The notes beneath the pieces were generated by a model that was not told the DNA's origin, did not search any database, and saw only the letters and a program-made list of their open reading frames with translations. Positions 33,426 through 46,145 of a stretch of DNA of 50,825 nucleotides are shown piece after piece. The stretch is from a phage: sequence record PZ452600.1, one strand, 5' to 3'. Position 1 is the first letter of the stretch; the number at the start of each line of letters is the position of its first letter. A program made the position numbers and the translations under genes.

Positions 33426-33641
33426 ATGAAAGATTTTATTAACGCAGCTACCGCCGGATCTGGCGGTTCATCTATCGCAAGCGCCGCTACAGGGCAGTTA
33501 ACCATTGCTATTGCCAGCTTTGTTTTAATGGCTGCATTCGGTGCATGGGGCGCTTACCTTCGCTGGCGTGATAGTAAAAAATTCCACGAGGCGATCGAAA
33601 AAGGTGATATTCAAAAAGCTATTGAAATCAGGGGCAAGTAA
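33426..33641 (+). CDS. holin
   Basis: 71 aa, one hydrophobic helix ([21 protein letters not shown]) and charged C-terminus; immediately upstream of endolysin. Confidence 0.65.
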
Positions 33642-34132
33642 TGAGCATAAAGAACAGGGTAGCGGCGGCGGCCTTTGGCGTTGCGGTTGCCTTGACTTCT
33701 CCACTTCTTGAAGAGATCGAAGGGGTAAGATACAAGCCATACAAAGATATTGCGGGAGTATGGACGGTTTGCGCAGGAATCACCGGACCCGATGTTATCC
33801 TGGGGAAAACGTACACTAAAAAAGAGTGTGATGCTTTGTTGGCTAAGCATATCCAGGTTGCTAAAAAGGAAGTTGACAAGCAAGTTAAGGTTGACATTCC
33901 TGATAGTATGCGTGCAGCAATGTACTCATTCACTTACAATGCAGGTGTGGGAGCTTTCAGAAATTCAACAATGCTGAAACTCATCAACCAGGGGAAATTA
34001 AACGAGGCTTGCGATCAGCTTTATCGTTGGACTTATTACCATAACCCAAAAACAGGAAAGCGCGAGAAGTCTAAAGGCTTACTTAACAGGCGCAAGGTCG
34101 AATACAAATATTGCACAATGGATCTGAAATGA
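33641..34132 (+). CDS. endolysin (lysozyme-like glycoside hydrolase)
   Basis: TAATG overlap with holin; catalytic-triad-like spacing E-x8-D-x5-T in [26 protein letters not shown]. Confidence 0.8.
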
Positions 34133-34524
34133 TGAAGAAATTTTTAATCGCACCAATCGCAATGGCGGTGATCTTGTCTGGATGTTCAAGCGTTACGCCA
34201 CTGACCGGATTAATCGGCAGTAAGCCGGAAATCACAGCACAGGCTGGCGCGGAGAACGTGAAGCAGACAGTTGGCATTACAGCAAAGCAGGACGCCAGCA
34301 CAAAACAGGAAACCACAATAAAGGAATCTGCGGTTGACAAGGTGGACACGTCCATCAAGAAGGATTTCACAACATCAACCATTCAGGCCAATACCATCAA
34401 GGCAGACAAAATTCAGGTCGTGCAGGGTAATAACGGCAGATGGTACGATCCGGTAATCATATGCGTGGTTGTGTTAATTGTGCTGATTTGTCTTTACTGG
34501 AGAGAAAAGAAAAAGGAGGCTTAA
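34129..34524 (+). CDS. unimolecular spanin (u-spanin)
   Basis: N-terminal lipoprotein signal with lipobox (AVILSGCSS) plus C-terminal transmembrane helix ([16 protein letters not shown]); overlaps endolysin stop. Confidence 0.7.
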
Positions 34525-34541
34525 TGCCTCCTTTATTTTTA
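34511..34541. terminator. bidirectional terminator after lysis cassette
   Basis: AGGAGGC-TTAAT-GCCTCCT flanked by A- and T-runs; spanin stop codon lies in the loop. Confidence 0.6.
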
Positions 34542-34763
34542 TGCGTCGGGCCACATATGAGTTTCGTTTGTTGGCTTGTTCGATTCGTCGTACTGCCTTA
34601 CTTCAATGCTGCAAGTGTCGCCATACATTTCTGCAATCTTGCGCTCATTTTCAACCGCCGATTGCTCACTCCATCCAAAACCTCTGTCATAAATTGTCGG
34701 GATTTCAGCAGAAGATCCGTTGTCATGATTATATACGCGAACTACTAAAAACTTGCTGGACAT
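34539..34763 (-). CDS. hypothetical protein
   Basis: 74 aa; preceded by box cassette 34784-34843 and AAAGG RBS. Confidence 0.5.
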   Translation of the reverse strand: MSSKFLVVRVYNHDNGSSAEIPTIYDRGFGWSEQSAVENERKIAEMYGDTCSIEVRQYDESNKPTNETHMWPDA

Positions 34764-34783
34764 AATTTTACCTTTTGGTTGTT

Positions 34784-34843
34784 TCGTTTCGATGAAACAA
34801 ATATACCCGACAATAGGTCGGGCGTTTTAACAAAAAATGCTAT
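34784..34843 (-). promoter_or_regulatory. box cassette
   Basis: minus-strand ATAGCATTTTTTGTTAAAAC, hairpin GCCCGAC/GTCGGGT, TATATT, CATCGAAACGA (34794-34784); ATG 34763. Confidence 0.5.
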
Positions 34844-35034
34844 TCCATGCGCTTTACCGTAACCAGTAATACACCATCATCATTGCATAAAACATGTTCA
34901 GTGGTGCTAAAAGCGCGCATATCTGAATAAAGTAGCGTAAGTAAAGCATGAATAAAATCCTCATGTGATATTGAATTTACGGCGCAGTGCTTCAAGATCT
35001 TGTCTATTAGCTTTTGCCTGGAACAATTCATCAT
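34840..35034 (-). CDS. hypothetical small protein (uncertain)
   Basis: Ends with TAG embedded in box 34824-34843 like other cassette-flanked genes, but overlaps 34961-35356 by 74 nt; start unclear. Confidence 0.25.
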   Translation of the reverse strand: MMNCSRQKLIDKILKHCAVNSISHEDFIHALLTLLYSDMRAFSTTEHVLCNDDGVLLVTVKRME

Positions 35035-35356
35035 CGCCCATCTCCCCTATTCTAGCCATATCCCTGATCCAGTCGTTGCGCATACCATCCAGGCTATACA
35101 ATTCGAATCCGAAAGGCCGCTTTGACGATCCTTTGGACCAGTATTTTCCGCAGACCCCATCTATATAACCAGCCGTCATCATTCTTGCGCAAAATTCCTT
35201 AGATGCAAGGCTGGCGAACATTCGCGGCGTAAGTCCGGCGGCCCGTGCGAGCCGCTCACATTCTCTATGCTGATAGATAAATTTGGCTATGTGCTGCCTG
35301 TTAAACCAGTCGTATGACTCACACCATTTATACAGATCAAGCAAAAACATAATCAT
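34961..35356 (-). CDS. hypothetical protein
   Basis: 131 aa; ATGA overlap with upstream stop. Confidence 0.5.
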   Translation of the reverse strand: MIMFLLDLYKWCESYDWFNRQHIAKFIYQHRECERLARAAGLTPRMFASLASKEFCARMMTAGYIDGVCGKYWSKGSSKRPFGFELYSLDGMRNDWIRDMARIGEMGDDELFQAKANRQDLEALRRKFNIT

Positions 35357-36933
35357 CCCAGCAGTATTGGATTGACAAAAATAACACCATTAATCACACA
35401 AACATAATTTCTTTCTTCCAGCATTGGCAGCAAGTGCCCTTCTATCCTCTTCATTACGCCAGCCTGACCAACGAAAGGTTTTACCTTTCTCGCTGATTCG
35501 TACAGGGCGCGAATATTCAGGATCCCTTTGTTAGCCTTGCCGTGCCTCGTGATCAATTCAATCAATTTACCCATTTCAGCATCATCACCAGCATAACCAG
35601 AAGCATTGGCGGCGCTAATGTATGTTTTGCTCAACTCCTGAAACATGATCAGAGCCTCTTGCATTGTATCTACGTCGATCTCTTTCGACTTCTGCGGGTA
35701 TCCAGCAGGATTAAACCAGTTGCGTATAACATGCAGGACGGAAGCAAGCCTGATCACCTGTTTATCCATTTTACCCAGCGCACCGCGTAACATTGTATGA
35801 GAATACTTTCCTCCGTCTGCAAGATGCGGTTCCATATCCTGGCGAGCAATGTTGAGCACTCGCATAGCTGAACGGCTTATTTTCAGCGATATATTTGATT
35901 CGCTCATGATGTTATGCACCAATTGATAATATTGGGCTTTCAATTCAGAATCCACCGCCTCATAGGTAGAATCACCATTTTCATCAATGAATGAGCGACG
36001 GCCTAAGAATGATTCCTCGCGGACCAACAAAAAACGCTCACTAACACCGATGCCTCGCGATCCAGCGTCCATTATTCCGCTTATCGTTTCATCCTGGGCT
36101 ATAACGCTCATACATCCAAGCGCGCGAAAACTCATATTATTGTCAGCATTAGCGCGGGCAATTGATACGTGACCATTATCCCACGCCTTAAGCACTAACT
36201 CACTGTTAGTCTTCCTTTCGCTATTTGCATAGGTCAAGCCTAACAGACTGTTAATACTTGTTGCTTCATCAGATATTACGGCAAAGTTACCTTGCTTGTT
36301 GTTGATTTTCGCCAAGCCTTCTGGAGTTGTATCTGAAACAGGAAAAGTTATATCACACATTTTTTCCAGCTTTTCCTCCAGATCCTCTTTTTCCTGGTAT
36401 AGAGATTCCATATCAGCGCCGGATCTTTCGCTTTTCATCTCCTTTGCAAGACCTGCCAGCTTTGCCTGTATTTTCTTTCTTTCCTTGCGGCGTTGCTCGT
36501 TGATCTTCTCAACTTCCGCAATCATCGGAGCAATAGCCATGCTGTTGATCGCAGATTTACCAGTTGACGGCGGCTGGCTTGTAACGACGTAAAGCGCAGT
36601 CGGCTGATCGGTTCCGTGATAGTCAACCGTAAAGCGTCCAAGCATAGCGGCAGAAATGCAGCCGATAAAGTGCATGTAAGCCGATGATTCAGGGAATTGA
36701 ACGGATCGCGCAATGCTGCGTGATAACTTGCCGACAACATCAATATCATTACCAAGAGAAATAACGGGGTAGCGATCGTGACCGCTATTCACATCCTTTA
36801 CGTCGCCCCAAAAGCTGGACGACTGGCGATAGCCGTTAGCCTGAATTGATACGCGAACTGGTGAGAGGTTCTGGCTTTCAGCCATAGCGATTATTTGCTG
36901 TGGAGTTAATTTGTTCGTTTCTAATGAAAACAT
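35353..36933 (-). CDS. P-loop-containing protein (DUF3987/primase-associated-like)
   Basis: 526 aa; AAGGAG RBS; P-loop-like PPSTGKS; central charged coiled segment. Confidence 0.5.
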   Translation of the reverse strand: MFSLETNKLTPQQIIAMAESQNLSPVRVSIQANGYRQSSSFWGDVKDVNSGHDRYPVISLGNDIDVVGKLSRSIARSVQFPESSAYMHFIGCISAAMLGRFTVDYHGTDQPTALYVVTSQPPSTGKSAINSMAIAPMIAEVEKINEQRRKERKKIQAKLAGLAKEMKSERSGADMESLYQEKEDLEEKLEKMCDITFPVSDTTPEGLAKINNKQGNFAVISDEATSINSLLGLTYANSERKTNSELVLKAWDNGHVSIARANADNNMSFRALGCMSVIAQDETISGIMDAGSRGIGVSERFLLVREESFLGRRSFIDENGDSTYEAVDSELKAQYYQLVHNIMSESNISLKISRSAMRVLNIARQDMEPHLADGGKYSHTMLRGALGKMDKQVIRLASVLHVIRNWFNPAGYPQKSKEIDVDTMQEALIMFQELSKTYISAANASGYAGDDAEMGKLIELITRHGKANKGILNIRALYESARKVKPFVGQAGVMKRIEGHLLPMLEERNYVCVINGVIFVNPILLG

Positions 36934-36961
36934 TCGTTAGCTTCTCCTTTGTGGGCCGTAA

Positions 36962-37005
36962 ATTTTAACGGCCCAATACTACCCCGTTTTGTCAAAAAGT
37001 GCTAT
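36962..37005 (-). promoter_or_regulatory. box cassette (variant box)
   Basis: minus-strand ATAGCACTTTTTGACAAAAC, N18, TAAAAT inside hairpin GGGCCGT/ACGGCCC; ATG 36933. Confidence 0.45.
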
Positions 37006-37223
37006 TTGATCCGCTCTATTGCAACCAGAAGTCGATCAGGCTGGCGGTCGCTGTAGCACTCTCCTGTAATCCCATCCTTAAACGTAAAGTAAAGCGCCTT
37101 ATGATATGAAAAACCAATCAGCCAACCTACCGCCGTTTTTTTGATGGGCCTGACTATATCGCCAGGCTTGAAAGTCTTTGTGGTAGAATGCGTTACTTTG
37201 TAACGGTTTTCACTGTTTATCAC
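37002..37223 (-). CDS. hypothetical protein
   Basis: 73 aa; overlaps upstream stop; stop codon embedded in box 36986-37005. Confidence 0.45.
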   Translation of the reverse strand: MINSENRYKVTHSTTKTFKPGDIVRPIKKTAVGWLIGFSYHKALYFTFKDGITGECYSDRQPDRLLVAIERIK

Positions 37224-37606
37224 AGATATTTACCCTCAAAAAGATAACAGCCGCCAGCAGAGAATCCGACCTCTTCACGGTACAGGTTCCAGCGGTCGCC
37301 GCACTCATCAAAAACATAACCAGCAATGCTTCCAAGCGGTCGCCCTTTCTCGATCTGGTATCTCTTTCCCTGCTTAAAGTGCTTTTTGCACGGCATGTTA
37401 TGATCTACAAAAGTGCAAAGAACGGTCTTTGTGTTAATGGCGCGGTAATCATCTCGGTTTGCTGGAAGCCAACGGCTACCCTTAACAAGCGTCTTAACCT
37501 GGAACTCTTCCAACTCGATCACATCATTACTTCCTGAAATCTTCTGATAAACCGTTTTAAATCGGCCTTTCATCAATACGTTGGTTTCATTACAGATAAC
37601 ATTCAT
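37220..37606 (-). CDS. hypothetical protein
   Basis: 128 aa; AAAGGAG RBS; downstream of cassette 37626-37679. Confidence 0.5.
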   Translation of the reverse strand: MNVICNETNVLMKGRFKTVYQKISGSNDVIELEEFQVKTLVKGSRWLPANRDDYRAINTKTVLCTFVDHNMPCKKHFKQGKRYQIEKGRPLGSIAGYVFDECGDRWNLYREEVGFSAGGCYLFEGKYL

Positions 37607-37625
37607 GATCAGATCTCCTTTGTTT

Positions 37626-37679
37626 GTTCGATGTGATTATGCCAGGTTTTTACACCTGGCTTTTAACAAAAAGTGCTAT
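37626..37679 (-). promoter_or_regulatory. box cassette
   Basis: minus-strand box (37679-37660), hairpin GCCAGGTG/CACCTGGC, CATAAT (37641-37636), CATCGAAC (37633-37626); ATG 37606. Confidence 0.5.
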
Positions 37680-38386
37680 TTTGAGTTTGACTCAAATACG
37701 GCGCGAGCAAATCCGCGCGGAGTGAGGGAGCGGATCATCTTTGTGCGCGATGACTTGCCGCCAGTTTTGGCCCAGCCTGGATTATCTTTGTCTTTCTCTT
37801 TCGGCAGGATTAAAGCGCGTGGAGGAATAACAAAGCCGTTGCCAGTCCATAGGCATGTTTTCTTAAAATAGCGATCACGCGCCGGAATAATATCAGGGAA
37901 GTCGGGATGTTTATCATCTTCCGGAAGATAGCCAGCGTAATCGCACGGATGGAACGTATAATCAGGTTTTCGCCATAACGTTGACAACTTGCCAACCGGA
38001 TTTTCGATCATGTAAGGAACACCGAAATAATCAGCTATATCAGCCGCTATCCTGCAAGTGTCGGCGGCCTCATCCTGGAAAGATGGGTTCTCAAGGCGTT
38101 TTTTGGCCCAATGGCGAGATCCGCTATTTGCAAGGTCGGTGCACGGCGGAAATGCCATAATAAAATCAGGATTGCCCCACTCATTATTGATTGCCTTAAC
38201 ATAAAAAGCATCATCAATCCAGACGTTAACGTATTCGATATTCTCATGCTGTATGCGCACTGACTGGTAATCACCGTGATCGCCACCGTCAGCATTAAAG
38301 CAAATGCACTTATAGCCATTGTCAGCCCAATCTTTAACTGCTTTACCAGATCCATCAAATAGGGAGAATATTAAACCTTTATACAT
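37676..38386 (-). CDS. DNA (cytosine-5)-methyltransferase-like protein (short)
   Basis: Motif I-like FSLFDGSG, motif IV-like FPPCTDLANSG, motif VI-like MIENPVG; ATG 38386 with GAGG RBS; only ~237 aa. Confidence 0.6.
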   Translation of the reverse strand: MYKGLIFSLFDGSGKAVKDWADNGYKCICFNADGGDHGDYQSVRIQHENIEYVNVWIDDAFYVKAINNEWGNPDFIMAFPPCTDLANSGSRHWAKKRLENPSFQDEAADTCRIAADIADYFGVPYMIENPVGKLSTLWRKPDYTFHPCDYAGYLPEDDKHPDFPDIIPARDRYFKKTCLWTGNGFVIPPRALILPKEKDKDNPGWAKTGGKSSRTKMIRSLTPRGFARAVFESNSK

Positions 38387-38396
38387 CGTAATTACC

Positions 38397-38621
38397 TCAA
38401 AACGGAAAACAGCGCGCACAACCAGGATCGAAATCGCATCCACAATCATTAACAATAATAGTGGGATCTGCAAATATTGCGCTTGATTCAAGATCCATAT
38501 CCATATCACCTAAAGCCTCATCAAGAGTCTTAATTTTATATGCCACTTCAAGCGCCGCCTCTTTATTTAGTCCGGCATCTTCTGCCATTTGAAGGCGTTC
38601 AAAAAATCCATCTTGACTCAT
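38397..38621 (-). CDS. hypothetical Cys-rich small protein
   Basis: 74 aa; C-terminal CGCDFDPGCARC. Confidence 0.45.
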   Translation of the reverse strand: MSQDGFFERLQMAEDAGLNKEAALEVAYKIKTLDEALGDMDMDLESSAIFADPTIIVNDCGCDFDPGCARCFPF

Positions 38622-38734
38622 CGCATAATCCCCTTAATAACAGCCAAGATAATAGCTAAGCCAGCAGCAGTAACCAAAAATCCAACCGCTCCAATAATAG
38701 AATAAAAAAAGAAATCAATAGCTTTATCTATCAT
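38618..38734 (-). CDS. small hydrophobic membrane protein (38 aa)
   Basis: Not in ORF track; GAGGTGG RBS + ATG 38734; MIDKAIDFFFYSIIGAVGFLVTAAGLAIILAVIKGIMR; ATGA overlap with next gene. Confidence 0.4.
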   Translation of the reverse strand: MIDKAIDFFFYSIIGAVGFLVTAAGLAIILAVIKGIMR

Positions 38735-38776
38735 TTTCCACCTCATTTAAAAGGCGGCAAAACGCCGCCATATTAA

Positions 38777-39004
38777 TTAAAGAGCACGCCAACTTTGAAT
38801 ATAGAAAGCGTTTTCTTCCAGTAATTCTTTTAACTGATCTTTATTGTATTTTCGCACCTTGCCGCCTGGATGGATACCAATAAGATAGCCGCCTTTGCCC
38901 TCGGTGATAGTGATTTGGCTAATTCCGCAAGACTTATCAAGTTTTACAGCAACGCGGTGATGAGCGTCAATAGTTGCCATAATGTTTAAAACTTTTGCTT
39001 TCAT
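38777..39004 (-). CDS. hypothetical protein
   Basis: 75 aa; GAGG RBS; followed by terminator-like hairpin GGCGGCGTTTTGCCGCC. Confidence 0.5.
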   Translation of the reverse strand: MKAKVLNIMATIDAHHRVAVKLDKSCGISQITITEGKGGYLIGIHPGGKVRKYNKDQLKELLEENAFYIQSWRAL

Positions 39005-39112
39005 TTAAATATCCTCAATTGAAATATGAATGGCGTCGTGCTCTTTTTCCGTCGCCGCCGTAATGGTCATTTGCAACAGCCACCATCCGGGCATTTTTGA
39101 AAATAAATAGCC

Positions 39113-39325
39113 TCATTTCTTATTTTTCATCTTAAATTTATGGCCTGGAACACCAGCACCAATATATCCATCGTTGTATTCCATTAAATAAAGGTGAAGG
39201 CCATTATCTGAAATTACATGAGGATCTTCTTTGAGATTTCCCATTAGCGGGTATTCTTTTCCGCGCGTAAATCTCCAAGTTGAGTTATAAGTTTCTACGC
39301 ATTTAAGTTTTAATTGCTTTGCCAT
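39113..39325 (-). CDS. hypothetical protein
   Basis: 70 aa; overlaps upstream stop. Confidence 0.45.
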   Translation of the reverse strand: MAKQLKLKCVETYNSTWRFTRGKEYPLMGNLKEDPHVISDNGLHLYLMEYNDGYIGAGVPGHKFKMKNKK

Positions 39326-39522
39326 TAGATGATCTCCATGTATGTTTCAAAGCCATTTAACTTGAACAGGCCGTTTTCACATTTGCGAACGTTCCAAGTT
39401 AGCCCTGAGTGGTACGCCTCCATATCATCAAGGTCAATGGTGATTTCAGCACCTTTCTTAAACAAACCTTTTTCGTGAGACTTGTCGCGCTTAACAACTT
39501 TAACATCAACCTGATTTTCCAT
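39325..39522 (-). CDS. hypothetical protein
   Basis: ATG 39522 (MENQVDVK) downstream of cassette 39531-39597; track start 39573 lies inside the cassette. Confidence 0.45.
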   Translation of the reverse strand: MENQVDVKVVKRDKSHEKGLFKKGAEITIDLDDMEAYHSGLTWNVRKCENGLFKLNGFETYMEII

Positions 39523-39530
39523 CTTTAAAT

Positions 39531-39597
39531 CCTCGTTTGTTGTCGATGGGTGTAATATACCATTCAGGCGCACATCGCTTTTAACAAAAAGTGCTAT
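39531..39597 (-). promoter_or_regulatory. box cassette
   Basis: minus-strand box (39597-39578), TATATT (39559-39554), CATCGACAACAAACGAGG (39548-39531); ATG 39522. Confidence 0.5.
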
Positions 39598-39883
39598 TAA
39601 ACAACTTTTCCAGTTAAAGAGATAAGTTGCCTTGTGATCTTGTGGCGGCGATACTTACGCGCAACAACAGGAAGGCTTTCACCGCTTTGATGACCAAAGC
39701 AGATCGGCAATTCACCTTCAAGGGAGCGGAAGCCACCAAATTCAAGATCCCGCACTGGCTTAGCGCGCCAGGCTTCAATAAATCCGCGCTCGTCACGAGT
39801 GATATAGCGGTATATATTCGGGAGGGGCAATTGTATCCCCTCAAAATCCACGGTATCGGTATAGCTATAAAACTTAGAACTCA
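39597..39883 (-). CDS. hypothetical protein
   Basis: ATG 39883 with GGAG 10 nt upstream; stop TAA abuts box 39578-39597. Confidence 0.45.
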
Positions 39884-39885
39884 TA

Positions 39886-40026
39886 GTCAACAACTCCAAA
39901 CTCATTGACGATTTGCGCCTTATAGAAGCCGCCATTTTTCGCCATGTTGTAACAAGCGGCTACGGTTTCAAATTCGCGCGCTTCCGGCTGGCTGTTTTCG
40001 TGTTCCCAGGTAATCAGAGTAACCAT
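39886..40026 (-). CDS. hypothetical small protein (46 aa)
   Basis: Not in ORF track; GAGG RBS + ATG 40026 directly downstream of cassette 40035-40103; MVTLITWEHENSQPEAREFETVAACYNMAKNGGFYKAQIVNEVWSC. Confidence 0.4.
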
Positions 40027-40034
40027 TTTCAAAT

Positions 40035-40103
40035 CCTCGCATTCGTTGTCGATGCGTGTAATGTACAGGAATACGAGGATTGAGTTTTAACAAAAAGTGC
40101 TAT
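40035..40103 (-). promoter_or_regulatory. box cassette
   Basis: minus-strand box (40103-40084), TACATT (40065-40060), CATCGACAACGAATGCGAGG (40054-40035); ATG 40026. Confidence 0.5.
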
Positions 40104-40367
40104 TTAGTCCAGGAATTCGATTTCACGCTCTCCAGTTAACGGATCTACAAGCCAGAATCCGAGCGGTTCGCCGTGAACACCGCCATAGAATCCAAGCGCC
40201 GTCAGATCTTCACCTTTAACAAATACCAGGTTTCCGCTACGGCTTACGTGAGACACGTTAACGATAACCGGAAATGTGCGATCCTTAAATGCGGGCCGCA
40301 GGGCGTAACATCCGTTATTGAGCAAACGTGCTTTGCGCTTAACTGGAATAGGTGCATTAATTTTCAT
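40104..40367 (-). CDS. hypothetical protein
   Basis: 87 aa; AAGGAG RBS; stop codon abuts box 40084-40103. Confidence 0.5.
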   Translation of the reverse strand: MKINAPIPVKRKARLLNNGCYALRPAFKDRTFPVIVNVSHVSRSGNLVFVKGEDLTALGFYGGVHGEPLGFWLVDPLTGEREIEFLD

Positions 40368-40379
40368 GGTTATTACTCC

Positions 40380-40592
40380 TTATCGTAAAGATTTAAAGAC
40401 GTATAGTTTATTGCGGTAACTATATATCCGCATTGTTATTTCTCGCAGCGCAATATATTCCTTCCTGTTTTCCGGCATACTGGCGAGCAATAACAGGCAG
40501 TATTTATAAGCGCGGTCAAGATTTCTTTCCGTGCCCCTGCAATATCCATTATTGCGCCTGGATCGGTACAGCCATAACAATTTCTTGAACAT
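40380..40592 (-). CDS. hypothetical basic small protein (uncertain)
   Basis: C-terminal 70 codons of track ORF 40380-40778 from ATG 40592; weak RBS; Arg-rich. Confidence 0.3.
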   Translation of the reverse strand: MFKKLLWLYRSRRNNGYCRGTERNLDRAYKYCLLLLASMPENRKEYIALREITMRIYSYRNKLYVFKSLR

Positions 40593-40593
40593 T

Positions 40594-40803
40594 TCAGATC
40601 CGCCCATACAGATCGCAAACTTCGTTGATAAAACAGCGTTGAGACTCTTTATCCTGCTTCTCAAACATCGCACGGCACTCATAGCGGTGATTATGCACGA
40701 TGACAACAACCATATTTTCAGGCGCTGACGGGTGACGCGCGGAAGCGTCGCAGATTGAAACATCCATACCCATCTCATGTGCTTTCTTGATCACATCCAA
40801 CAT
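40594..40803 (-). CDS. hypothetical protein
   Basis: ATG 40803 with AGGAG RBS (track start 40827 is TTG); 69 aa. Confidence 0.4.
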   Translation of the reverse strand: MLDVIKKAHEMGMDVSICDASARHPSAPENMVVVIVHNHRYECRAMFEKQDKESQRCFINEVCDLYGRI

Positions 40804-41057
40804 TTTTTCTTCTCCTGCAATAAGCAAACATCATTGATAAAATCAGCACGGCCCTTAATGTTGCTGATGTGGAACGTCTTTTCAGCGTACAGGCCATCAC
40901 CTTCAATCACGATCATTACGCGAGTCGGTTTATTCACGGGCGCACGAGAAAAGGGTTGGCGCACCGGAAGAAATTTAGTCATCACATCTAGGTTAGACCT
41001 GGCGGCCCTGCAAAATGCATCCGCCAGATCCAAATCATTTTCGGTAATCACCGCCAT
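40791..41057 (-). CDS. hypothetical protein
   Basis: 88 aa; overlaps upstream stop. Confidence 0.45.
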   Translation of the reverse strand: MAVITENDLDLADAFCRAARSNLDVMTKFLPVRQPFSRAPVNKPTRVMIVIEGDGLYAEKTFHISNIKGRADFINDVCLLQEKKKCWM

Positions 41058-41329
41058 TACTTCTTGATCTCCTTACTGATAAATTTCAGCACCTGGCGCA
41101 AGAAAACTTCGTTGTTGATAGTCGCTGGCAATTCTTCTTTCACTTCTTGCGGCAGATAGATATTACCGTGCCAGGTCAAGCAATCGTAGTTAATACGATA
41201 AGAGCAAAGCCACTCGCAATCGTTATCTGCTTCCCATATGCAGAGTTGCAGAACATCGCCAAAATCTTCAACAGTCAGATCCAGACCGTGACGCTTAGCG
41301 AAATTGAAAGTGGTTTTGCTGATGTTCAT
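41057..41329 (-). CDS. hypothetical protein (first gene of leftward early block)
   Basis: 90 aa; CAGGAG RBS; directly downstream of cassette 41347-41408. Confidence 0.5.
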   Translation of the reverse strand: MNISKTTFNFAKRHGLDLTVEDFGDVLQLCIWEADNDCEWLCSYRINYDCLTWHGNIYLPQEVKEELPATINNEVFLRQVLKFISKEIKK

Positions 41330-41346
41330 TTACTATCTCCTGAGCG

Positions 41347-41408
41347 GTTCGTTTCGATGTGTGTAATGTACCCGATCAGGCGGCCTGAGTTTTAACAAAA
41401 AGTGCTAT
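41347..41408 (-). promoter_or_regulatory. box cassette heading the leftward early block
   Basis: minus-strand box (41408-41389), hairpin CAGGCCGCCTGATCGGG, TACATT (41370-41365), CATCGAAACGAAC (41359-41347); ATG 41329. Confidence 0.5.
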
Positions 41409-41437
41409 TTGACGGTTAGCACCAGGATTGTGATCGA

Positions 41438-41530
41438 AATAATCAAAAGTAATCATTCGTAATCAAATCGCGTCAAAATGATGATTGCCTTTGCAAATTT
41501 GATGAGAAAAGTAATCACGTTTAATCATTG
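41438..41530. repeat. iteron-like array of five (G)TAATCA repeats
   Basis: aaTAATCAaaa, gTAATCAttc, gTAATCAaat (10-11 bp phasing), then gTAATCAcgt, tTAATCAttg 40 nt later; non-coding. Confidence 0.5.
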
Positions 41531-41963
41531 GTTGCAGGGGAGATAGTGAAACCTTCCCCTCTTGCCTCACTTTTCCTCCTGGCTGTCAGTGGTTGTTGTC
41601 TTTTGTTCACCACTGTTACCGATTTCAGGCGGCGTGTTTCCGCGCGGTTTTCCGGTGTAGCGAAAACGGAAAAAACAAAGAAAATCCTCTATAATACATT
41701 GAAAATAAAGATTATTTATTTATATATATCTATAATGTTTTCTTTTTGTTCTCACTGTTACAGTGCTTTTTGTTGGTTATGGTGTGGTTGTGTGTGGGTA
41801 TATATGGATAGTTTCGCGCGCGGCGGATTGCATATGTATATATACTTTTTCCGGCGGATTGCGTTAACAGCGTGAACAGAAAAATAACAGCCGCGAAATC
41901 AATAACTTGCGCGTGATTTTGTAGTTTTTCGATATTGGTAACGTTTTGAATACAACAAAAACA

Positions 41964-41991
41964 TTGACACGCACCAAATAGCTTTTATAAT
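41964..41991 (+). promoter_or_regulatory. near-consensus sigma70 promoter for rightward early block
   Basis: TTGACA-N16-TATAAT; GGAGG RBS and ATG 42023 follow. Confidence 0.7.
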
Positions 41992-42022
41992 GCGCCAACA
42001 GTCAACAACCGGAGGAAAGGAA

Positions 42023-42487
42023 ATGGAACAGAAAACCACTAAGGACTATTGCGATTGGCTTCGCGAGCTTGGTCGCCGCCTGGCTAGTGGAGATATTGAA
42101 GAGTATAAAATGTCACTAATTGACCTGGCCGGAATGTTAAGCGGTGACGACTGCTACAAGATCACGCGCAGTTCATCCTACAGCCGGACCATTATCAACC
42201 GCATTCCAGAAGTAAGGGCCGCAGGTCGGGTAAGCATCAAGGTAGAGGAAGCGGAAGATGATAAATTTTACGTTTTCCGCATGGTCCGCGAATCGAAAAG
42301 GAAAATCATCACACCCGAAGAATTGCCAGCCATCAAGGCAAGGGCGATCAAAAAGTTTGCCGATCGCTTGCTGGCAGCAATCCCGAATATCGTTGACCTG
42401 GAAGGGGATAAACTGGCTGGAGCTTGTGAGGGCGTAAGCCGCTACCAGGATATGATCCGCGAAATCATCAAAGAGGAAGAGCAATGA
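42023..42487 (+). CDS. hypothetical protein (first gene after near-consensus promoter)
   Basis: GGAGGAAAGG RBS before ATG 42023; the track start 41990 falls inside the -10 hexamer. Confidence 0.55.
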   Translation: MEQKTTKDYCDWLRELGRRLASGDIEEYKMSLIDLAGMLSGDDCYKITRSSSYSRTIINRIPEVRAAGRVSIKVEEAEDDKFYVFRMVRESKRKIITPEELPAIKARAIKKFADRLLAAIPNIVDLEGDKLAGACEGVSRYQDMIREIIKEEEQ

Positions 42488-42756
42488 AAAAGGCATTAAT
42501 CAGCGTTTTGGCGGCAATGGCATTCCTGACCGGATGCAAAGAAGATGGCGCGCATGTTGGCAATGTGCAGATGGCTAACCCTGGCGATGACTACAGCGTA
42601 AGGGAGCTATTCACCGCTGACGGTTGCACCGTTTACCGATTCTATGACGATCGCACTGTTTACTTCACCAACTGCAAGGGAACGACTAGCTGGGAAGTGT
42701 CGAAAAGCAACGGCAAAGGCACAACAACAGAATATATGACCGTCGAGACAAAATAG
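42484..42756 (+). CDS. early lipoprotein
   Basis: ATGA overlap; signal peptide with lipobox LTGC (MKKALISVLAAMAFLTGCKED). Confidence 0.6.
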   Translation: MKKALISVLAAMAFLTGCKEDGAHVGNVQMANPGDDYSVRELFTADGCTVYRFYDDRTVYFTNCKGTTSWEVSKSNGKGTTTEYMTVETK

Positions 42757-42812
42757 CACTTTTTGTTAAAACGCCAGGTGCAAAGCCTGGCATAATAGCC
42801 TCATCGAAACGA
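42753..42812 (+). promoter_or_regulatory. box cassette
   Basis: box 42753-42772 contains upstream stop TAG; hairpin GCCAGG/CCTGGC; CATAAT 42791-42796; CATCGAAACGA 42802-42812. Confidence 0.5.
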
Positions 42813-42828
42813 GATTGAGGAAACAAAA

Positions 42829-43014
42829 ATGGCACGTCGCATCACCAAAGACCTTAAAGTCCTGAACAAAGAAAACGTAGTTAAAATCCTGGTTATATGG
42901 GGCTACAACGAAGAAGCAGCAAAGCAGAAGGTAGAGGCAGGTTATGACCTGGCTGTAAAAGCAATGCCAAACGACGACGCCAAAGGCATTGCAAACTATG
43001 TAGCGTTCTTTTAA
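42829..43014 (+). CDS. hypothetical protein
   Basis: GAGG 8 nt before ATG; downstream of cassette 42753-42812. Confidence 0.5.
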   Translation: MARRITKDLKVLNKENVVKILVIWGYNEEAAKQKVEAGYDLAVKAMPNDDAKGIANYVAFF

Positions 43015-43029
43015 TTAGCAGGTGAATAA

Positions 43030-43215
43030 ATGAAAACGAAATTAGTCCATAAATCAGAAATCAAGATCGGCGATACTGTGATTCACAACGGCGAGCTTAG
43101 AACGGTTGGCAAAGAGTCAATAAGCCGCGATGAATTTATGGGGATCTTGTTGTTCGGTGACTCTTATCGTCTTGGTTACAAGATGGTTGAGCTTGTGGAA
43201 GAGGTCAAATTCTAA
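43030..43215 (+). CDS. hypothetical protein
   Basis: AGGTGA RBS; 61 aa. Confidence 0.5.
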   Translation: MKTKLVHKSEIKIGDTVIHNGELRTVGKESISRDEFMGILLFGDSYRLGYKMVELVEEVKF

Positions 43216-43259
43216 ATAGCACTTTTTGTTAAAACTCGAAAACGATAACCAGGCATAAT
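43216..43259 (+). promoter_or_regulatory. box cassette
   Basis: box 43216-43235; N18; CATAAT 43254-43259; stem-loop GGGCGGCACGGCGTCGCCC in leader. Confidence 0.5.
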
Positions 43260-43313
43260 AAATCACATAGGGCGGCACGGCGTCGCCCACAAAACCAATC
43301 AGGAGAAAGCACC

Positions 43314-44117
43314 ATGTTAAAACTTGCTGACATTAAATTCCCGATCACCTTCGAATCTCGCGGCATTGGTCATTACATTTTTACTGATGAAAAAACATGC
43401 CATAAAGTTGATTTGCATAGCTACAAGCGTGCGCCATCAGACATGGAGATTGAACACTTCATTGATGCACATAACAAGCACTACAACGCACTTAAAGACT
43501 ATGGCTATGCAATGCCAGGATATACCAGCTTCCACTACAAGCCATATAAAGGCCAGGTGTTGCCAGTGCGCTCGCCGGAACGCGCAGAGATTCCGATGGT
43601 CAATATGAAAACATGCGACTACAAAAAGCTGTGGTGCTTAAGTGTGGACAATATCAAGTATCCGATCACGTTCCGCACGACTGGTAAGTCAACGATTCGC
43701 TACACATCGCGCGAAAATGGCGTTTATAGCGATGGTACGAAATCAGAGTTGAAAGTTGATTTCTTTGTCAACGGTCACAACAAATTCAATCCGCACAACG
43801 AAGAGGATAAAGTGTACTACGTGGAAGACATTACAAAACACTTGTTTGGAGAAACTCCATTCGGCGGCGGTAAGACGTCAATTCAAAAAATCGTAACGCA
43901 GGGCGCGATTGAAGATATGCCAGTTGCAGCCACGCTAAAAGGAGTCCGGCTTGATGACGGCACCTGGTATGAATTAACGGCTACACCAAAGACGATCGAA
44001 ATTCATGATGATGTTGTTATCCTTCTGCTTCACTACGGCGGCTATAAAAACCGGACGATTACAGGTGAGATCAGCATCAAGCGCGGAACGATGGTTAAGT
44101 GGAAGGTCAAAGTGTAA
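43314..44117 (+). CDS. hypothetical protein with internal duplication
   Basis: 267 aa; repeated segment ADIKFPITFESRGIGHYIFTDE / DNIKYPITFRTTGKSTIRYTSRE; downstream of cassette 43216-43259. Confidence 0.55.
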   Translation: MLKLADIKFPITFESRGIGHYIFTDEKTCHKVDLHSYKRAPSDMEIEHFIDAHNKHYNALKDYGYAMPGYTSFHYKPYKGQVLPVRSPERAEIPMVNMKTCDYKKLWCLSVDNIKYPITFRTTGKSTIRYTSRENGVYSDGTKSELKVDFFVNGHNKFNPHNEEDKVYYVEDITKHLFGETPFGGGKTSIQKIVTQGAIEDMPVAATLKGVRLDDGTWYELTATPKTIEIHDDVVILLLHYGGYKNRTITGEISIKRGTMVKWKVKV

Positions 44118-44160
44118 ATAGCACGAATTGTTAAAACTCAAATGTGGGGCCAGGTATAAT
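44118..44160 (+). promoter_or_regulatory. box cassette (variant box)
   Basis: ATAGCACGAATTGTTAAAAC 44118-44137; hairpin GTGGGGCC/GGCCCCAC with TATAAT 44155-44160 in loop. Confidence 0.5.
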
Positions 44161-44190
44161 GGCCCCACTTTCAACGAAGGAGATAAAACG

Positions 44191-44412
44191 ATGTACATTA
44201 GCAAGAAGATGAAATGTGTTTCCGTTAACTATGCTTGCTCTGGCATGTTCAAGCCTGGCGAAATCTATACGGCGCAAAAACTGAAATCATCAACCGGATC
44301 TTTTTACGTGAGCAATAGTAAGGGGCATCGCATGTTCCTGAACGGCGGCGAAGGCACTAAGGTTATGGCACACGCTATGGTAATGGCTGAATTTGAGGAA
44401 GTGAAACAATGA
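44191..44412 (+). CDS. hypothetical protein, tandem paralog A
   Basis: AAGGAG RBS before ATG 44191; paralogous to the next ORF (..FLNGGEGTKVMAH..AEFEEVK). Confidence 0.5.
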   Translation: MYISKKMKCVSVNYACSGMFKPGEIYTAQKLKSSTGSFYVSNSKGHRMFLNGGEGTKVMAHAMVMAEFEEVKQ

Positions 44413-44654
44413 TCATTGAAAACAATTTTCTTTGCGTTAAGAGCAATAGACCATTCTTCACGCCTGGCAAGGTGTACCAGGGCAAGAAGGACACAATAGA
44501 TGGTAACTCTTATCATGTTTACTGCAACAACGGATACAAGTTTTACCTTAACGGCAACAATGGAACTGAGATCGTTGCGTTTGAAAACGTAGTTGCCGAG
44601 TTCGAGCAGATTACAGACGCGGAATTTGAGGAAGTGAAAGATGAAAACAAATAA
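44409..44654 (+). CDS. hypothetical protein, tandem paralog B
   Basis: ATGA overlap; ..FYLNGNNGTEIVAFENVVAEFEQ..EFEEVK matches paralog A. Confidence 0.5.
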   Translation: MIIENNFLCVKSNRPFFTPGKVYQGKKDTIDGNSYHVYCNNGYKFYLNGNNGTEIVAFENVVAEFEQITDAEFEEVKDENK

Positions 44655-44862
44655 GCGCGTCAAGCACAGGTTTACTGATAACCACGGCGACGCGATTGAT
44701 GTATACAAGTTCGGCGATCGCGTGTTTATTGATGGCACGTTTGAAGGTGGGCGTAGGCCGGATTTTAGGTCGATACTTACCGTTGACCAAGTGCGCAAGC
44801 TGGCAGATAAGTTAAATGATCTGGCAGATGAAATAGAATACAAGCAAATCCATTTTAATTGA
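44641..44862 (+). CDS. hypothetical protein
   Basis: 73 aa; overlaps upstream 3' end. Confidence 0.45.
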   Translation: MKTNKRVKHRFTDNHGDAIDVYKFGDRVFIDGTFEGGRRPDFRSILTVDQVRKLADKLNDLADEIEYKQIHFN

Positions 44863-44873
44863 TAGGTTTGATA

Positions 44874-45413
44874 ATGAAAAAATACACTTTCGAACTGTGG
44901 GGCAATAAGTACGAATTAATCACCAGCAAGCCGATTGTTATCGTTGACCTGGACGGCACGCTGTCGGACGGATCGCATCGCTTGCACTTGTTGCCAACTG
45001 AAAACTTGCACCTTACGGAATCGTGGCGCGAGTTTAACAGGGCCGCAGCAGGAGATTCACCGATTAAAAGCACGATCGCGATTGTTAACGGTTTGTGGGT
45101 GTCTGGATTTGCCATCGTCATCTTGACCGGACGCAGCGACGAGGTGCGCTATGAAACATGCAAATGGTTGAATGAGAGCGGCGTGAAGTTTGACGAAATC
45201 ATCATGCGCCGACATGAGGACAACCGAAAGGATACGGTTATTAAAGAAGAAGCCTTGCGCGCTATTGGCCTGGACAATATTGTTTGCGCCTTTGACGATT
45301 CGCCGAACGTTGTTAAGCACTTCCGCAGCCTGGGAATCACAACCTATCAGGTCACGGAATACGACAAGCCACACGCTCACCTGCAATCTCACGGCGTGGA
45401 GTGTTTAAAATGA
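44874..45413 (+). CDS. HAD-superfamily phosphatase (nucleotidase / polynucleotide 3'-phosphatase-like)
   Basis: HAD motif I IVIVDLDGTLSDG, motif II ILTGR, motif IV FDDSPNVV; ATG 44874 (track start 44859 is TTG). Confidence 0.65.
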   Translation: MKKYTFELWGNKYELITSKPIVIVDLDGTLSDGSHRLHLLPTENLHLTESWREFNRAAAGDSPIKSTIAIVNGLWVSGFAIVILTGRSDEVRYETCKWLNESGVKFDEIIMRRHEDNRKDTVIKEEALRAIGLDNIVCAFDDSPNVVKHFRSLGITTYQVTEYDKPHAHLQSHGVECLK

Positions 45414-45571
45414 CTTGGTTGCTTTTAATCTTTGTCACAAGTTACAACTCCGCAGCTATTGAGTCGCAGGAGTTCCACGGCGAATCAAGATGCCAGGAAG
45501 CGCGAAAGCAAGTTGTTCTCCACATGTCAGATAGTGGGAAGGATGTAACAGCGTTATGCGTTCGTAAATAG
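45410..45571 (+). CDS. small secreted/membrane protein (53 aa)
   Basis: Not in ORF track; ATGA overlap with HAD stop; hydrophobic N-terminus MTWLLLIFVTSYNSAAIES; stop TAG embedded in box 45568-45588. Confidence 0.4.
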   Translation: MTWLLLIFVTSYNSAAIESQEFHGESRCQEARKQVVLHMSDSGKDVTALCVRK

Positions 45572-45612
45572 CACTTTTTGCAAAAAACAGATTAACGGGC
45601 TTGCGGTATAGT
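45568..45612 (+). promoter_or_regulatory. box cassette (variant box)
   Basis: ATAGCACTTTTTGCAAAAAAC 45568-45588; hairpin GGGCTT/AAGCCC with TATAGT 45607-45612 in loop. Confidence 0.45.
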
Positions 45613-45643
45613 AAGCCCATCAACAACAAGCGAGGATTAAATC

Positions 45644-46089: not shown

Positions 46090-46145
46090 TTCTTGCTATG
46101 GCGCATTCATGCAGTGCGCCATGTTGAGAAAACCTAAAGGGGGAA

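What the first reader, a model, noticed from the sequence alone, without database searches (positions are those of the whole stretch)
34539..41329. Leftward early block of about 20 small unassigned genes, each behind its own cassette
Apart from the P-loop/DUF3987-like and methyltransferase-like proteins, these are 38-131 aa proteins with no motifs I can recognise, including a Cys-rich one (38397-38621), a 38-aa membrane peptide (38618-38734) and overlapping small ORFs missed by the 60-aa track threshold. In virulent phages such cassette-driven early micro-genes are where host-takeover and anti-defence functions usually sit. I cannot assign any to a known system.
Basis: inference. Interest (0 to 1): 0.5.

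Follow-up and report, generated by a model that had tools for sequence, protein, structure and literature searches.

The report
T1-like phage leftward small-gene block
This is the ordinary, already-sequenced leftward gene arm of a T1-like coliphage (genus Warwickvirus, almost identical to phage SECphi27): a replication and DNA-methylation core plus shuffled small genes, two of which belong to families that bacterial immune systems sense.

Summary
The 20 leftward genes at 34539-41329 are real. All have usable start sites and pN/pS below 1 against five relatives, including the 33-, 38- and 50-aa ones. They do not each sit behind their own cassette: six cassettes head six units of 5, 2, 7, 2, 3 and 1 genes.

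The cassette's 20-mer is the direct repeat aaATAGCACnnnTTGnTAAAA, already published for TLS and noted there in T1, Rtp and Rogue1. It occurs 19 times across this window.

The window is a Warwickvirus. The block is about 97% identical to about 55 GenBank phages, and most of its proteins are 92-100% identical to SECphi27's.

- **g8** is a Gp54 "antiviral trigger" family member (PF25180). It is 100% identical to SECphi27 Gp19, which was tested and does not activate CapRelSJ46.
- **g15** is 97% identical to the SECphi27 128-aa protein that triggers Mokosh type I.
- **g17, g18, g14:** DUF3987 helicase, winged-helix protein and Dcm-like methyltransferase.
- **Conserved as far as T1:** g11, g13, g15, g17, g18, g19.
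- **Variable between relatives:** g2-g10, g12, g20.

No anti-defence activity is shown for any gene. Early timing is untested. This is ordinary, already-known territory.

The parts
41330..41410 (-). Cassette 1: 20-mer AATAGCACTTTTTGTTAAAA (41390-41409), 19-nt spacer, -10-like TACATT, leader CATCGAAACGA, Shine-Dalgarno. Heads unit g1-g5.
41057..41329 (-). g1, 90 aa. Confident alpha+beta RWD/UBC-like model. The family is also found on contigs of T4-like and rV5-like size. Function unknown.
40791..41057 (-). g2, 88 aa. ORFan restricted to Warwickvirus-like phages and the fastest-evolving gene of the block.
   Evidence: no Pfam or PHROG match; one full-length cluster among 1.84 billion representatives, the other three hits being a 33-aa fragment and two weak matches to long repetitive proteins; pN/pS 0.50
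40594..40803 (-). g3, 69 aa. Accessory, function unknown.
40380..40592 (-). g4, 70 aa, basic (pI 10.2). Accessory. Not annotated in some relatives and absent from Bas05.
40104..40367 (-). g5, 87 aa. Its T1 homologue is the C-terminal part of ST71, which lies in the opposite (rightward) arm.
   Evidence: phrog_9595
40027..40105 (-). Cassette 2: 20-mer 40085-40104, -10-like TACATT. Heads unit g6-g7.
39874..40026 (-). g6, 50 aa, DUF7170. In Bas11 the homologue and its cassette lie in the opposite arm.
   Evidence: PF23776 E 9.3e-28
39597..39884 (-). g7, 95 aa, function unknown. g6 and g7 are replaced by two unrelated genes in Bas04 and tonnikala, and by position in SECphi27 (gp20/gp21).
   Evidence: phrog_1972
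39523..39599 (-). Cassette 3: 20-mer 39579-39598, -10-like TATATT. Heads unit g8-g14.
39325..39522 (-). g8, 65 aa, Gp54 'phage antiviral trigger' family. 100% identical to SECphi27 Gp19 and 53% identical to Bas11 Gp54.
   Evidence: PF25180 E 1.7e-38; PDB 9axb E 4.4e-17; PMC11578894
39113..39325 (-). g9, 70 aa, accessory. Some relatives (JLBYU26, Bas04) carry an extra 282-nt gene next to it. SECphi27 gp18 at that position is 30% identical to g9.
39015..39116 (-). g10, 33 aa, basic micro-ORF, conserved within Warwickvirus.
   Evidence: phrog_32259; pN/pS 0.19
38777..39004 (-). g11, 75 aa. Conserved across the family; the T1 match lies at T1 ST5.
   Evidence: phrog_4344
38753..38769 (.). GC-rich hairpin with a T run on both strands (terminator-like), between g11 and g12 inside unit 3.
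38618..38734 (-). g12, 38 aa, single hydrophobic helix. Seen only in Warwickvirus relatives.
   Evidence: pN/pS 0.09
38397..38621 (-). g13, 74 aa, acidic, with a C-terminal CxC-x6-C-x2-C motif. The N-terminal half is conserved in T1 (at T1 ST6), which lacks both the Cys tail and the methyltransferase.
   Evidence: phrog_9323
37676..38386 (-). g14, 236 aa, Dcm-like C5-cytosine methyltransferase candidate. The start is taken at ATG 38386, as in the SECphi27 RefSeq record.
   Evidence: phrog_757 E 4.7e-85; weak match to DNMT3B over its FDG and PC stretches; BASEL annotation; no Pfam or NCBIfam match
37607..37680 (-). Cassette 4: 20-mer 37661-37680, strong spacer hairpin, -10-like CATAAT. Heads unit g15-g16.
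37220..37606 (-). g15, 128 aa. Orthologue (97% identity, same position) of the SECphi27 128-aa protein that triggers Mokosh type I. The C-terminal ~70 residues are conserved as far as T1 (at T1 ST7).
   Evidence: phrog_2684; no PDB relative
37002..37223 (-). g16, 73 aa, GTG start overlapping the g15 stop. Function unknown.
36934..37006 (-). Cassette 5: variant 20-mer AATAGCACTTTTTGACAAAA (36987-37006), -10-like TAAAAT. Heads unit g17-g19.
35353..36933 (-). g17, 526 aa, DUF3987 P-loop protein annotated as DNA helicase. Conserved across the family; the T1 match lies at T1 ST9.
   Evidence: PF13148 E 2.2e-44; phrog_2373 E 3.4e-244
34961..35356 (-). g18, 131 aa, winged-helix fold. Its start overlaps the g17 stop. 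Conserved across the family; the T1 match lies at T1 ST10.
34840..35034 (-). g19, 64 aa. Overlaps the g18 3' end by 74 nt in another frame. Conserved as far as T1, where it is not annotated.
   Evidence: phrog_9539; pN/pS 0.06
34764..34844 (-). Cassette 6: 20-mer 34825-34844, strong spacer hairpin, -10-like TATATT. Heads g20.
34539..34763 (-). g20, 74 aa, acidic. Seen only in Warwickvirus relatives; replaced in tonnikala, which has an HNH endonuclease gene in the replaced stretch.
   Evidence: phrog_27210
34512..34534 (.). Bidirectional terminator-like hairpin between g20 and the convergent lysis operon.

Best explanation
The block is the leftward non-structural arm of a Warwickvirus genome (T1-like phage, family Drexlerviridae). 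It corresponds to T1 genes ST1-ST10 and SECphi27 gp9-gp25.

Six short cassettes divide it into six transcription units. Each cassette carries the family-wide 20-mer ATAGCAC-N3-TTG-N-TAAAA, then a -10-like hexamer exactly 19 nt downstream, then a conserved leader and ribosome-binding site. Genes within a unit overlap or abut.

The contents fall into three classes:
1. **Family-conserved genes.** A DUF3987 P-loop helicase (g17) is tightly packed with a winged-helix DNA-binding protein (g18) and g19. g11, g13 and g15 are also conserved as far as T1.
2. **DNA modification.** A Dcm-like cytosine methyltransferase candidate (g14) sits next to the Cys-motif protein g13.
3. **A variable set of tiny accessory genes** (g2-g10, g12, g20). 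These are gained, lost and swapped between relatives, in two cases together with, or at, the cassettes.

g1 fits neither set cleanly. It is kept within the subfamily and in Salmonella and Klebsiella relatives but was not found in T1.

Two members are sensed by host immunity in close relatives. The g15 orthologue triggers Mokosh type I. The g8 family (Gp54) triggers CapRelSJ46, although this exact allele was tested and does not.

Shown here: the gene models, their conservation pattern, the family matches, the two predicted folds and the cassette map. Inferred: host-RNA-polymerase promoter function of the cassettes, early timing, a replication role for g18 and g19, and host-interaction roles for the accessory genes.
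For: - **Identity of the region.** It is 97% identical over 100% of its length to Warwickvirus phages; 69 records cover at least 80%. Synteny holds with Bas04, Bas05, Bas11, SECphi27 and T1.
- **Real genes.** Gene models and pN/pS below 1 for all 20.
- **Conserved versus variable split.** Presence/absence tables.
- **Family and fold assignments.** DUF3987 and Gp54 and DUF7170 in Pfam; methyltransferase PHROG; g18 winged helix.
- **g15.** It is 97% identical to SECphi27 gp13. The Mokosh type I escape mutant E7fs at SECphi27 position 6995 lies in that gene, and the gene sequence printed in the paper's supplement translates to MNVICNETNVLMKGRFKTVYQK.
- **g8.** It is identical to SECphi27 Gp19, which the paper reports as not activating CapRelSJ46.
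- **Cassettes.** 19 copies against 0.08 expected; fixed 19-nt spacing to a -10-like hexamer in all six block cassettes; the same repeat in T1, Bas11, and Klebsiella and Salmonella relatives; published for TLS.
- **Module swap.** Homology to Bas04 and tonnikala breaks at 39598 and resumes at 40085, which are the two 20-mers.
- **Movement between arms.** The g6 homologue with its cassette lies in the opposite arm in Bas11, and the g5 homologue lies in T1's opposite arm.
Against: - I found no transcript or start-site data for any T1-like phage, so promoter function and 'early' timing are unproven.
- The TTGTTA inside the 20-mer lies 22 nt from the -10-like hexamer, too far for a normal sigma-70 -35 element. 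The generic promoter scan found no excess of sigma-70 sites (16 against 17.8 expected). The TLS authors leave stoperator, enhancer-binding site and UP element all open.
- Conservation does not prove a housekeeping role. g15 is conserved across the family, yet a frameshift at codon 7 is viable in SECphi27.
- Only one clean swap is bounded by cassettes on both sides. Other differences between relatives break at gene borders or next to HNH endonuclease genes.
- The methyltransferase has no Pfam or NCBIfam match. The BASEL study found no simple link between methyltransferase genes and restriction resistance.
Confidence: 0.75

Rival explanations
1. One reading: the block is mainly an anti-defence and host-takeover island, and most of the small proteins are dedicated inhibitors of host immunity or host processes.
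For: - Eleven genes vary between close relatives.
- g2 is a fast-evolving ORFan (pN/pS 0.50).
- Proteins that trigger one defence system sometimes inhibit another. The Gp54 authors raise this possibility for Gp54.
- The closest BASEL relatives, Bas04 and Bas05, are unusually resistant to host immunity systems for unexplained reasons.
Against: - No gene matches a known anti-defence protein, defence-system component or solved inhibitor structure by sequence.
- Six genes are conserved as far as T1, and g18 and g19 are tightly packed with the helicase.
- g18 is a DNA-binding fold.
- The g1 fold matches are generic: the top hits are eukaryotic kinetochore RWD domains.
- Both documented immune links are as triggers, not inhibitors.
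Confidence: 0.15
2. The accessory small genes are selfish or neutral cargo. They spread between phages by recombination at the repeated cassettes, in the way moron genes or T4 promoter-stem-loop modules do, without a consistent benefit to the phage.
For: - One swap is bounded by cassettes, and gene-plus-cassette units move between arms.
- HNH endonuclease genes are inserted in the same arm in BEK12A, tonnikala and T1.
- g8 and g15 are dispensable in the laboratory.
Against: - Purifying selection acts on all of them (pN/pS at most 0.19 for 19 of 20).
- Gene order is stable in about 55 genomes at 95-99% identity.
- g15 and g8 persist although they are liabilities on hosts that carry Mokosh or CapRel, which suggests a compensating benefit.
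Confidence: 0.1
3. Many of the sub-100-aa ORFs are not genes at all, only chance open frames in a non-coding or regulatory stretch.
For: Several are left unannotated in some GenBank records: g4 in SECphi27, g10 in JLBYU26, g19 in T1.
Against: - Synonymous changes outnumber non-synonymous ones in 19 of 20 ORFs.
- Seventeen match PHROG families.
- Shine-Dalgarno sequences precede most starts.
- g1 and g18 fold confidently.
- The Bas11 member of the g8 family has a crystal structure.
Confidence: 0.03

Closest known systems
Escherichia phage SECphi27 (Warwickvirus) gp9-gp25
   Same: Same arm, order and orientation. Seventeen of the 20 proteins are 92-100% identical. g8 is identical to Gp19 and g15 is 97% identical to gp13.
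   Different: SECphi27 has two unrelated genes (gp20, gp21) in place of g6 and g7. At the g9 position it has a 282-nt gene whose product is only 30% identical to g9. It does not annotate g4, g10 or g19.
Phage T1 genes ST1-ST10 (right end of the T1 map)
   Same: Leftward arm next to the lysis genes. It holds the DUF3987 helicase (ST9), the g18 homologue (ST10), an unannotated g19 homologue, and homologues of g15 (ST7), g13 (ST6) and g11 (ST5) in the same order. The same 20-mer repeat is present.
   Different: T1 has no Dcm-like methyltransferase and no Cys tail on the g13 homologue. No counterpart in this arm was found for g1-g4, g6-g10, g12 or g20. An HNH endonuclease gene (ST8) sits beside the helicase. 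The g5 homologue lies in the other arm.
Gp54 of phage Bas11 (PDB 9axb, 9erv), direct activator of the CapRelSJ46 toxin-antitoxin defence
   Same: g8 matches Pfam PF25180 over its full length and lies in the same arm as Bas11 gene 54.
   Different: Only 53% identical. It has V7 and A25 where Bas11 Gp54 has A7 and I25, and the substitutions A7V and I25V each abolish activation. The identical SECphi27 protein did not activate CapRelSJ46.
T1-family 21-nt direct repeat aaATAGCACnnnTTGnTAAAA (described for phage TLS; noted there in T1, Rtp and Rogue1)
   Same: Same consensus, same orientation as the downstream genes, intergenic, and about 60-80 nt upstream of start codons.
   Different: Nothing material. 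This analysis adds the fixed 19-nt distance to a -10-like hexamer and the frequent but sequence-variable hairpin in that spacer.
T4-type promoter-early stem-loop (PeSL) cassettes in hyperplastic regions (recalled from my own knowledge: Arbiol et al. 2010, Genome Biol Evol)
   Same: Repeated promoter-plus-hairpin modules flank tiny early ORFs and coincide with swap points between related phages.
   Different: The sequences are unrelated. Only one swap bounded on both sides and two between-arm relocations were seen here. Promoter activity is untested.

Membership tests
Pfam PF25180, Gp54 phage antiviral trigger protein (g8) | Full-length match to the family model above the curated cut-off | tested here: met
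   130.7 bits against a cut-off of 27, residues 1-65 on profile positions 1-65 of 65; PDB 9axb E 4.4e-17
Pfam PF25180, Gp54 phage antiviral trigger protein (g8) | Residues required for CapRelSJ46 activation (A7 and I25 of Bas11 Gp54) | tested here: not met
   g8 has V7 and A25. The paper reports that A7V and I25V each abolish activation, and that SECphi27 Gp19, identical to g8, does not activate.
Mokosh type I trigger (SECphi27 128-aa protein) (g15) | Orthology: same length, same position, high identity to the gene mutated in escape phages | tested here: met
   128 aa and 97% identical over 100% of its length. SECphi27 gp13 spans 6629-7015, which contains the +T escape mutation at 6995.
Mokosh type I trigger (SECphi27 128-aa protein) (g15) | Toxicity when co-expressed with Mokosh type I | not testable with these tools
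   Shown only for the SECphi27 protein
DUF3987 P-loop helicase-like proteins (g17) | Pfam PF13148 match above the cut-off and a Walker A motif | tested here: met
   152.6 bits against a cut-off of 27. PPSTGKS is visible in the sequence. Helicase activity is not testable.
C5-cytosine DNA methyltransferase (g14) | Match to a curated C5-methyltransferase model | tested here: not met
   No Pfam or NCBIfam match at E up to 0.1
C5-cytosine DNA methyltransferase (g14) | Conserved motifs (FxGxG, catalytic PC, ENV) and membership in a phage methyltransferase family | tested here: inconclusive
   phrog_757 'DNA methyltransferase' E 4.7e-85. LFDGSG, FPPCTDL and ENPVG are visible in the sequence. The alignment to DNMT3B over the first two stretches is weak, E 0.6.
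Winged-helix DNA-binding proteins (g18) | Winged-helix fold in a confident model | tested here: met
T1-family direct-repeat element | Consensus ATAGCACnnnTTGnTAAAA, intergenic, co-oriented with the downstream gene | tested here: met
   Six copies in the block and 19 in the window, against 0.08 expected by chance. Published consensus.
Sigma-70 promoter (cassettes) | A -35 hexamer 16-18 nt upstream of a -10 hexamer | tested here: not met
   TTGTTA lies 22 nt from the -10-like hexamer. The generic scan did not pick the cassette 20-mer/-10 pair as a promoter.
Known anti-phage defence system components (PADLOC) | Any match to a PADLOC model | tested here: not met
   No matches for any of the 20 proteins
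Known anti-defence proteins | Sequence similarity to a characterised inhibitor (Ocr, Ard, Acb, Tad, Gad, Acr and similar) | tested here: inconclusive
   No dedicated anti-defence library was available. There were no relevant matches in Pfam, PHROGs or PDB sequences. Only g1 and g18 were compared by fold.

The most novel reading that the evidence does not exclude
One or more of the genes seen here only in Warwickvirus relatives (g2, g3, g10, g12, g20; also g9, which SECphi27 lacks and which has only a weak match in a Salmonella relative, and g4, which Bas05 lacks) encodes a new anti-restriction or anti-defence protein. That protein would explain why Bas04 and Bas05 are 'highly resistant' to host immunity systems while most other T1-like phages are very sensitive. 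The BASEL authors could not link that difference to methyltransferase genes. A second, related reading is that the family-wide winged-helix protein g18 is the unknown factor that binds the 20-mer repeat and switches the cassettes on or off.
Probability: 0.15. Interest if true: 0.6.

Novelty: already known. Interest (0 to 1): 0.28.

Why it matters
As it stands the finding adds little. The arm is present almost unchanged in dozens of sequenced coliphages, including the model phage SECphi27, and its repeat element is published.

The analysis does three useful things:
- It corrects the map to six units rather than twenty.
- It links two of the 'unassigned' genes to published immune triggers (Mokosh type I and CapRelSJ46).
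- It separates six genes conserved as far as T1 from eleven variable ones.

That narrows the candidates for the unexplained immunity resistance of Bas04 and Bas05 to a handful of tiny genes that could be deleted one by one.

Tried and rejected
- **PADLOC**, all 20 proteins: no matches.
- **NCBIfam**, 17 small proteins joined into one query plus g14 and g17: no matches.
- **PDB sequence search** of the 17 joined small proteins: only a chance hit at E 1.2. g14 and g17 searched alone gave only E around 0.5. A 41-sequence profile of g15 gave nothing below E 1.6.
- **Pfam on all 30 members of the g18 family:** no matches.
- **All-against-all comparison within the block:** no convincing paralogues. 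The best pair was g2 with g3, E 0.013.
- **Rfam over 33500-42500:** no RNA family.
- **g2 against 1.84 billion representatives:** one real cluster. The two long hits are repetitive, low-complexity proteins and were rejected.
- **Reading the cassette as a standard sigma-70 promoter:** rejected on spacing.
- **AFDB fold library:** not available.
- **RAZR and Avs papers on T1-like phages:** their triggers (Erf-like protein, capsid protein) lie outside this block.
- **Transcript data for T1-like phages:** none found in the literature searches.

Full report
**What the window is.** The region 34539-41329 is 97.5% identical over its full length to Escherichia phage ExeQuayColi. It matches 298 phage records, and 69 of them cover at least 80% of it. 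These phages belong to Drexlerviridae, Tempevirinae, Warwickvirus. The closest laboratory phages are SECphi27, Bas04 (FritzSarasin) and Bas05 (PeterMerian). The block lies between the rightward lysis genes and a roughly 580-bp non-coding divergent region. In phage T1 the equivalent arm is ST1-ST10, at the right end of the linear map.

**Checking the observation.** I built 20 minus-strand gene models, g1 to g20, from ORFs, start codons and Shine-Dalgarno sequences. Eighteen are 33-131 aa, g14 is 236 aa and g17 is 526 aa. Against five Warwickvirus relatives every ORF shows purifying selection. pN/pS runs from 0.00 to 0.19 for 19 of them and is 0.50 for g2. The 'Cys-rich' g13 carries four cysteines in a C-terminal CxC-x6-C-x2-C motif, conserved in Bas11 and in Salmonella and Klebsiella relatives.

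**The cassette claim is wrong.** The 20-mer AATAGCACTTTTTGTTAAAA occurs six times in the block: at 34825, 36987, 37661, 39579, 40085 and 41390, all on the minus strand. It occurs 19 times in the whole window at up to 3 mismatches, against 0.08 expected by chance. In the block and the two non-structural arms it points the same way as the downstream gene. Two copies in the structural region (6194, 9947) point against the surrounding genes. The six copies fill every intergenic gap longer than about 45 nt. They define units g1-g5, g6-g7, g8-g14, g15-g16, g17-g19 and g20. All other junctions overlap or leave at most about 12 nt, apart from a terminator-like hairpin between g11 and g12.

**What the cassette looks like.** In all six block cassettes, and in most of the others in the window, a -10-like hexamer (CATAAT, TATATT, TACATT or TAAAAT) lies exactly 19 nt after the 20-mer. 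A leader resembling CATCGAAACGA and a ribosome-binding site follow. Two of the six block spacers form strong hairpins whose sequences differ between cassettes. The TTGTTA inside the 20-mer is 22 nt from the -10-like hexamer, so the element is not a standard sigma-70 promoter. The same element occurs in T1, Bas11, and Klebsiella and Salmonella relatives. It is already published: the TLS re-annotation reports 21 copies of aaATAGCACnnnTTGnTAAAA. That paper notes the repeat in T1, Rtp and Rogue1 and leaves its role open between stoperator, enhancer-binding site and UP element (PMC11447400). Two terminators annotated in the T1 record coincide with cassette spacer hairpins.

**What the genes are.**
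- **g17:** DUF3987 (E 2.2e-44) and PHROG 'DNA helicase'.
- **g14:** PHROG 'DNA methyltransferase' (E 4.7e-85). It has FxGxG-, PC- and ENV-like motifs but no Pfam or NCBIfam match. BASEL annotates the orthologue as Dcm-like.
- **g6:** DUF7170.
- **g8:** matches Pfam PF25180, 'phage antiviral trigger protein Gp54', end to end (E 1.7e-38). It is 53% identical to the crystallised Bas11 protein and lies in the same arm as Bas11 gene 54.
- **g15:** 97% identical to SECphi27 gp13.

**The two immune links.** Zhang et al. (PMC11578894) showed that Bas11 Gp54 binds and activates the CapRelSJ46 defence and is non-essential. They also showed that homologues from SECphi27, Bas5, Bas8 and Bas10 do not activate it, and that A7V or I25V abolishes activation. 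g8 is 100% identical to SECphi27 Gp19 and has V7 and A25. This allele therefore belongs to the family but is a documented non-trigger of that particular system.

Stokar-Avihail et al. (bioRxiv 10.1101/2022.08.27.505566) reported that SECphi27 escapes Mokosh type I through a frameshift (E7fs, +T at position 6995) in a '128aa protein of unknown function'. Co-expressing the wild-type protein with Mokosh type I is toxic. The gene sequence printed in their supplement encodes MNVICNETNVLMKGRFKTVYQK, which is the start of g15.

The g15 family has a conserved C-terminal domain of about 70 residues and no PDB relative. g2 is an ORFan, with one full-length cluster among 1.84 billion representatives.

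**Conserved versus variable genes.** tblastn against nine related loci, then SECphi27 and Bas05, gives three groups:
- **Conserved as far as T1:** g11, g13, g15, g17, g18 and g19.
- **Conserved within the subfamily and in Salmonella and Klebsiella relatives:** g1, g14 and g16.
- **Variable between relatives:** g2-g10, g12 and g20.

**How the variable genes move.**
- g6 and g7 are replaced by two unrelated genes in Bas04 and tonnikala. Homology breaks at 39598 and resumes at 40085, which are the two flanking 20-mers. SECphi27 has the same-sized pair of genes at that position.
- In Bas11 the g6 homologue, with its cassette, lies in the opposite arm. In T1 the g5 homologue is part of ST71, also in the opposite arm.
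- Other differences break at gene borders or lie next to HNH endonuclease genes.

Cassette-mediated shuffling is therefore plausible but rests on few cases.

**Most likely working.** The arm is a set of six units with cassette-type control regions. It combines a conserved replication and DNA-modification core with a changeable set of tiny accessory genes. Promoter activity, early timing and the roles of the accessory genes are inferred, not shown. By analogy with other virulent phages, host-interaction roles for some accessory genes are likely. No inhibitor function is supported by any match.

**An open question the block touches.** The BASEL study reports that Bas04 and Bas05, the closest BASEL relatives of this window, are 'highly resistant' to host immunity systems, whereas most Drexlerviridae are very sensitive. 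It found no simple link to methyltransferase genes (PMC8594841). g2, g3, g5, g9, g10, g12 and g20 are present in the window, Bas04 and Bas05 but absent from Bas11. The DNA of g2-g4 occurs in only 65 phage records, all Warwickvirus-like. This is a correlation across a few closely related phages, and many genes outside the block also differ.

**Verdict.** The feature is already known and ordinary for this phage family. Its interest is low to moderate, mainly as a short list of deletable candidates for an unexplained resistance phenotype.

Noticed in passing
window 41410-41990: A non-coding divergent region of about 580 bp lies between the leftward and rightward small-gene arms. It has AT-rich stretches and a perfect sigma-70 consensus promoter pointing right (TTGACA-16-TATAAT, 41964-41991). 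In T1 the two arms sit at the two physical ends of the genome, so this region may hold the packaging start site and/or the origin.
   Followed up: partly
window 6194-6213 and 9947-9966 (minus strand): Two copies of the 20-mer lie in the rightward structural gene region but point leftward, against the surrounding genes. The second is followed by a terminator-like hairpin. T1 has copies at the matching places (15068 and 18832).
   Followed up: partly
window 38397-38621 (g13) and 37676-38386 (g14); L011 (T1) 47118-47327: The C-terminal Cys motif of g13 is present in every relative examined that also has the adjacent Dcm-like methyltransferase. T1 lacks both: its g13 homologue ends in an acidic tail. 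This hints that g13 is a partner of the methyltransferase.
   Followed up: partly
L011 (T1) 44002-44169, minus strand: T1 has an unannotated homologue of g19 (45% identity) that overlaps the 3' end of ST10 in another frame, as g19 overlaps g18 here.
   Followed up: partly
window 40791-41057 (g2): g2 has the highest pN/pS of the block (0.50, against at most 0.19 for the others) and no relatives outside Warwickvirus-like phages. It could be under relaxed or diversifying selection.
   Followed up: partly
window 38753-38769: A terminator-like GC hairpin with T runs on both strands sits between g11 and g12, in the middle of the longest unit, with no cassette after it. The genes downstream (g12, g13 and the methyltransferase) may depend on read-through.
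   Followed up: no
L007 (BEK12A) 4172-4693 and 5632-6159; L008 (tonnikala) 3502-3975; L011 (T1) 46085-46624: Homing or HNH endonuclease genes are inserted at different places in this arm in relatives: next to the g15, g14 or helicase homologues, or in place of g20. The neighbouring genes there are unusually divergent alleles (g14 46% and g15 44% in BEK12A).
   Followed up: partly
window 39320-39327; L002 (JLBYU26) 7287-7568: Several relatives (JLBYU26, Bas04) carry an extra 282-nt gene between g8 and g9 that this window lacks. SECphi27 has a gene of the same size at that position (gp18), and its product is 30% identical to g9.
   Followed up: partly
window 42752-48191, plus strand: The rightward arm is built the same way, from many small unassigned genes behind the same cassettes (20-mer copies at 42752, 43215, 44117, 45567, 46878 and 48172). 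It includes polynucleotide kinase and dNMP kinase genes. Genes appear to move between the two arms.
   Followed up: no
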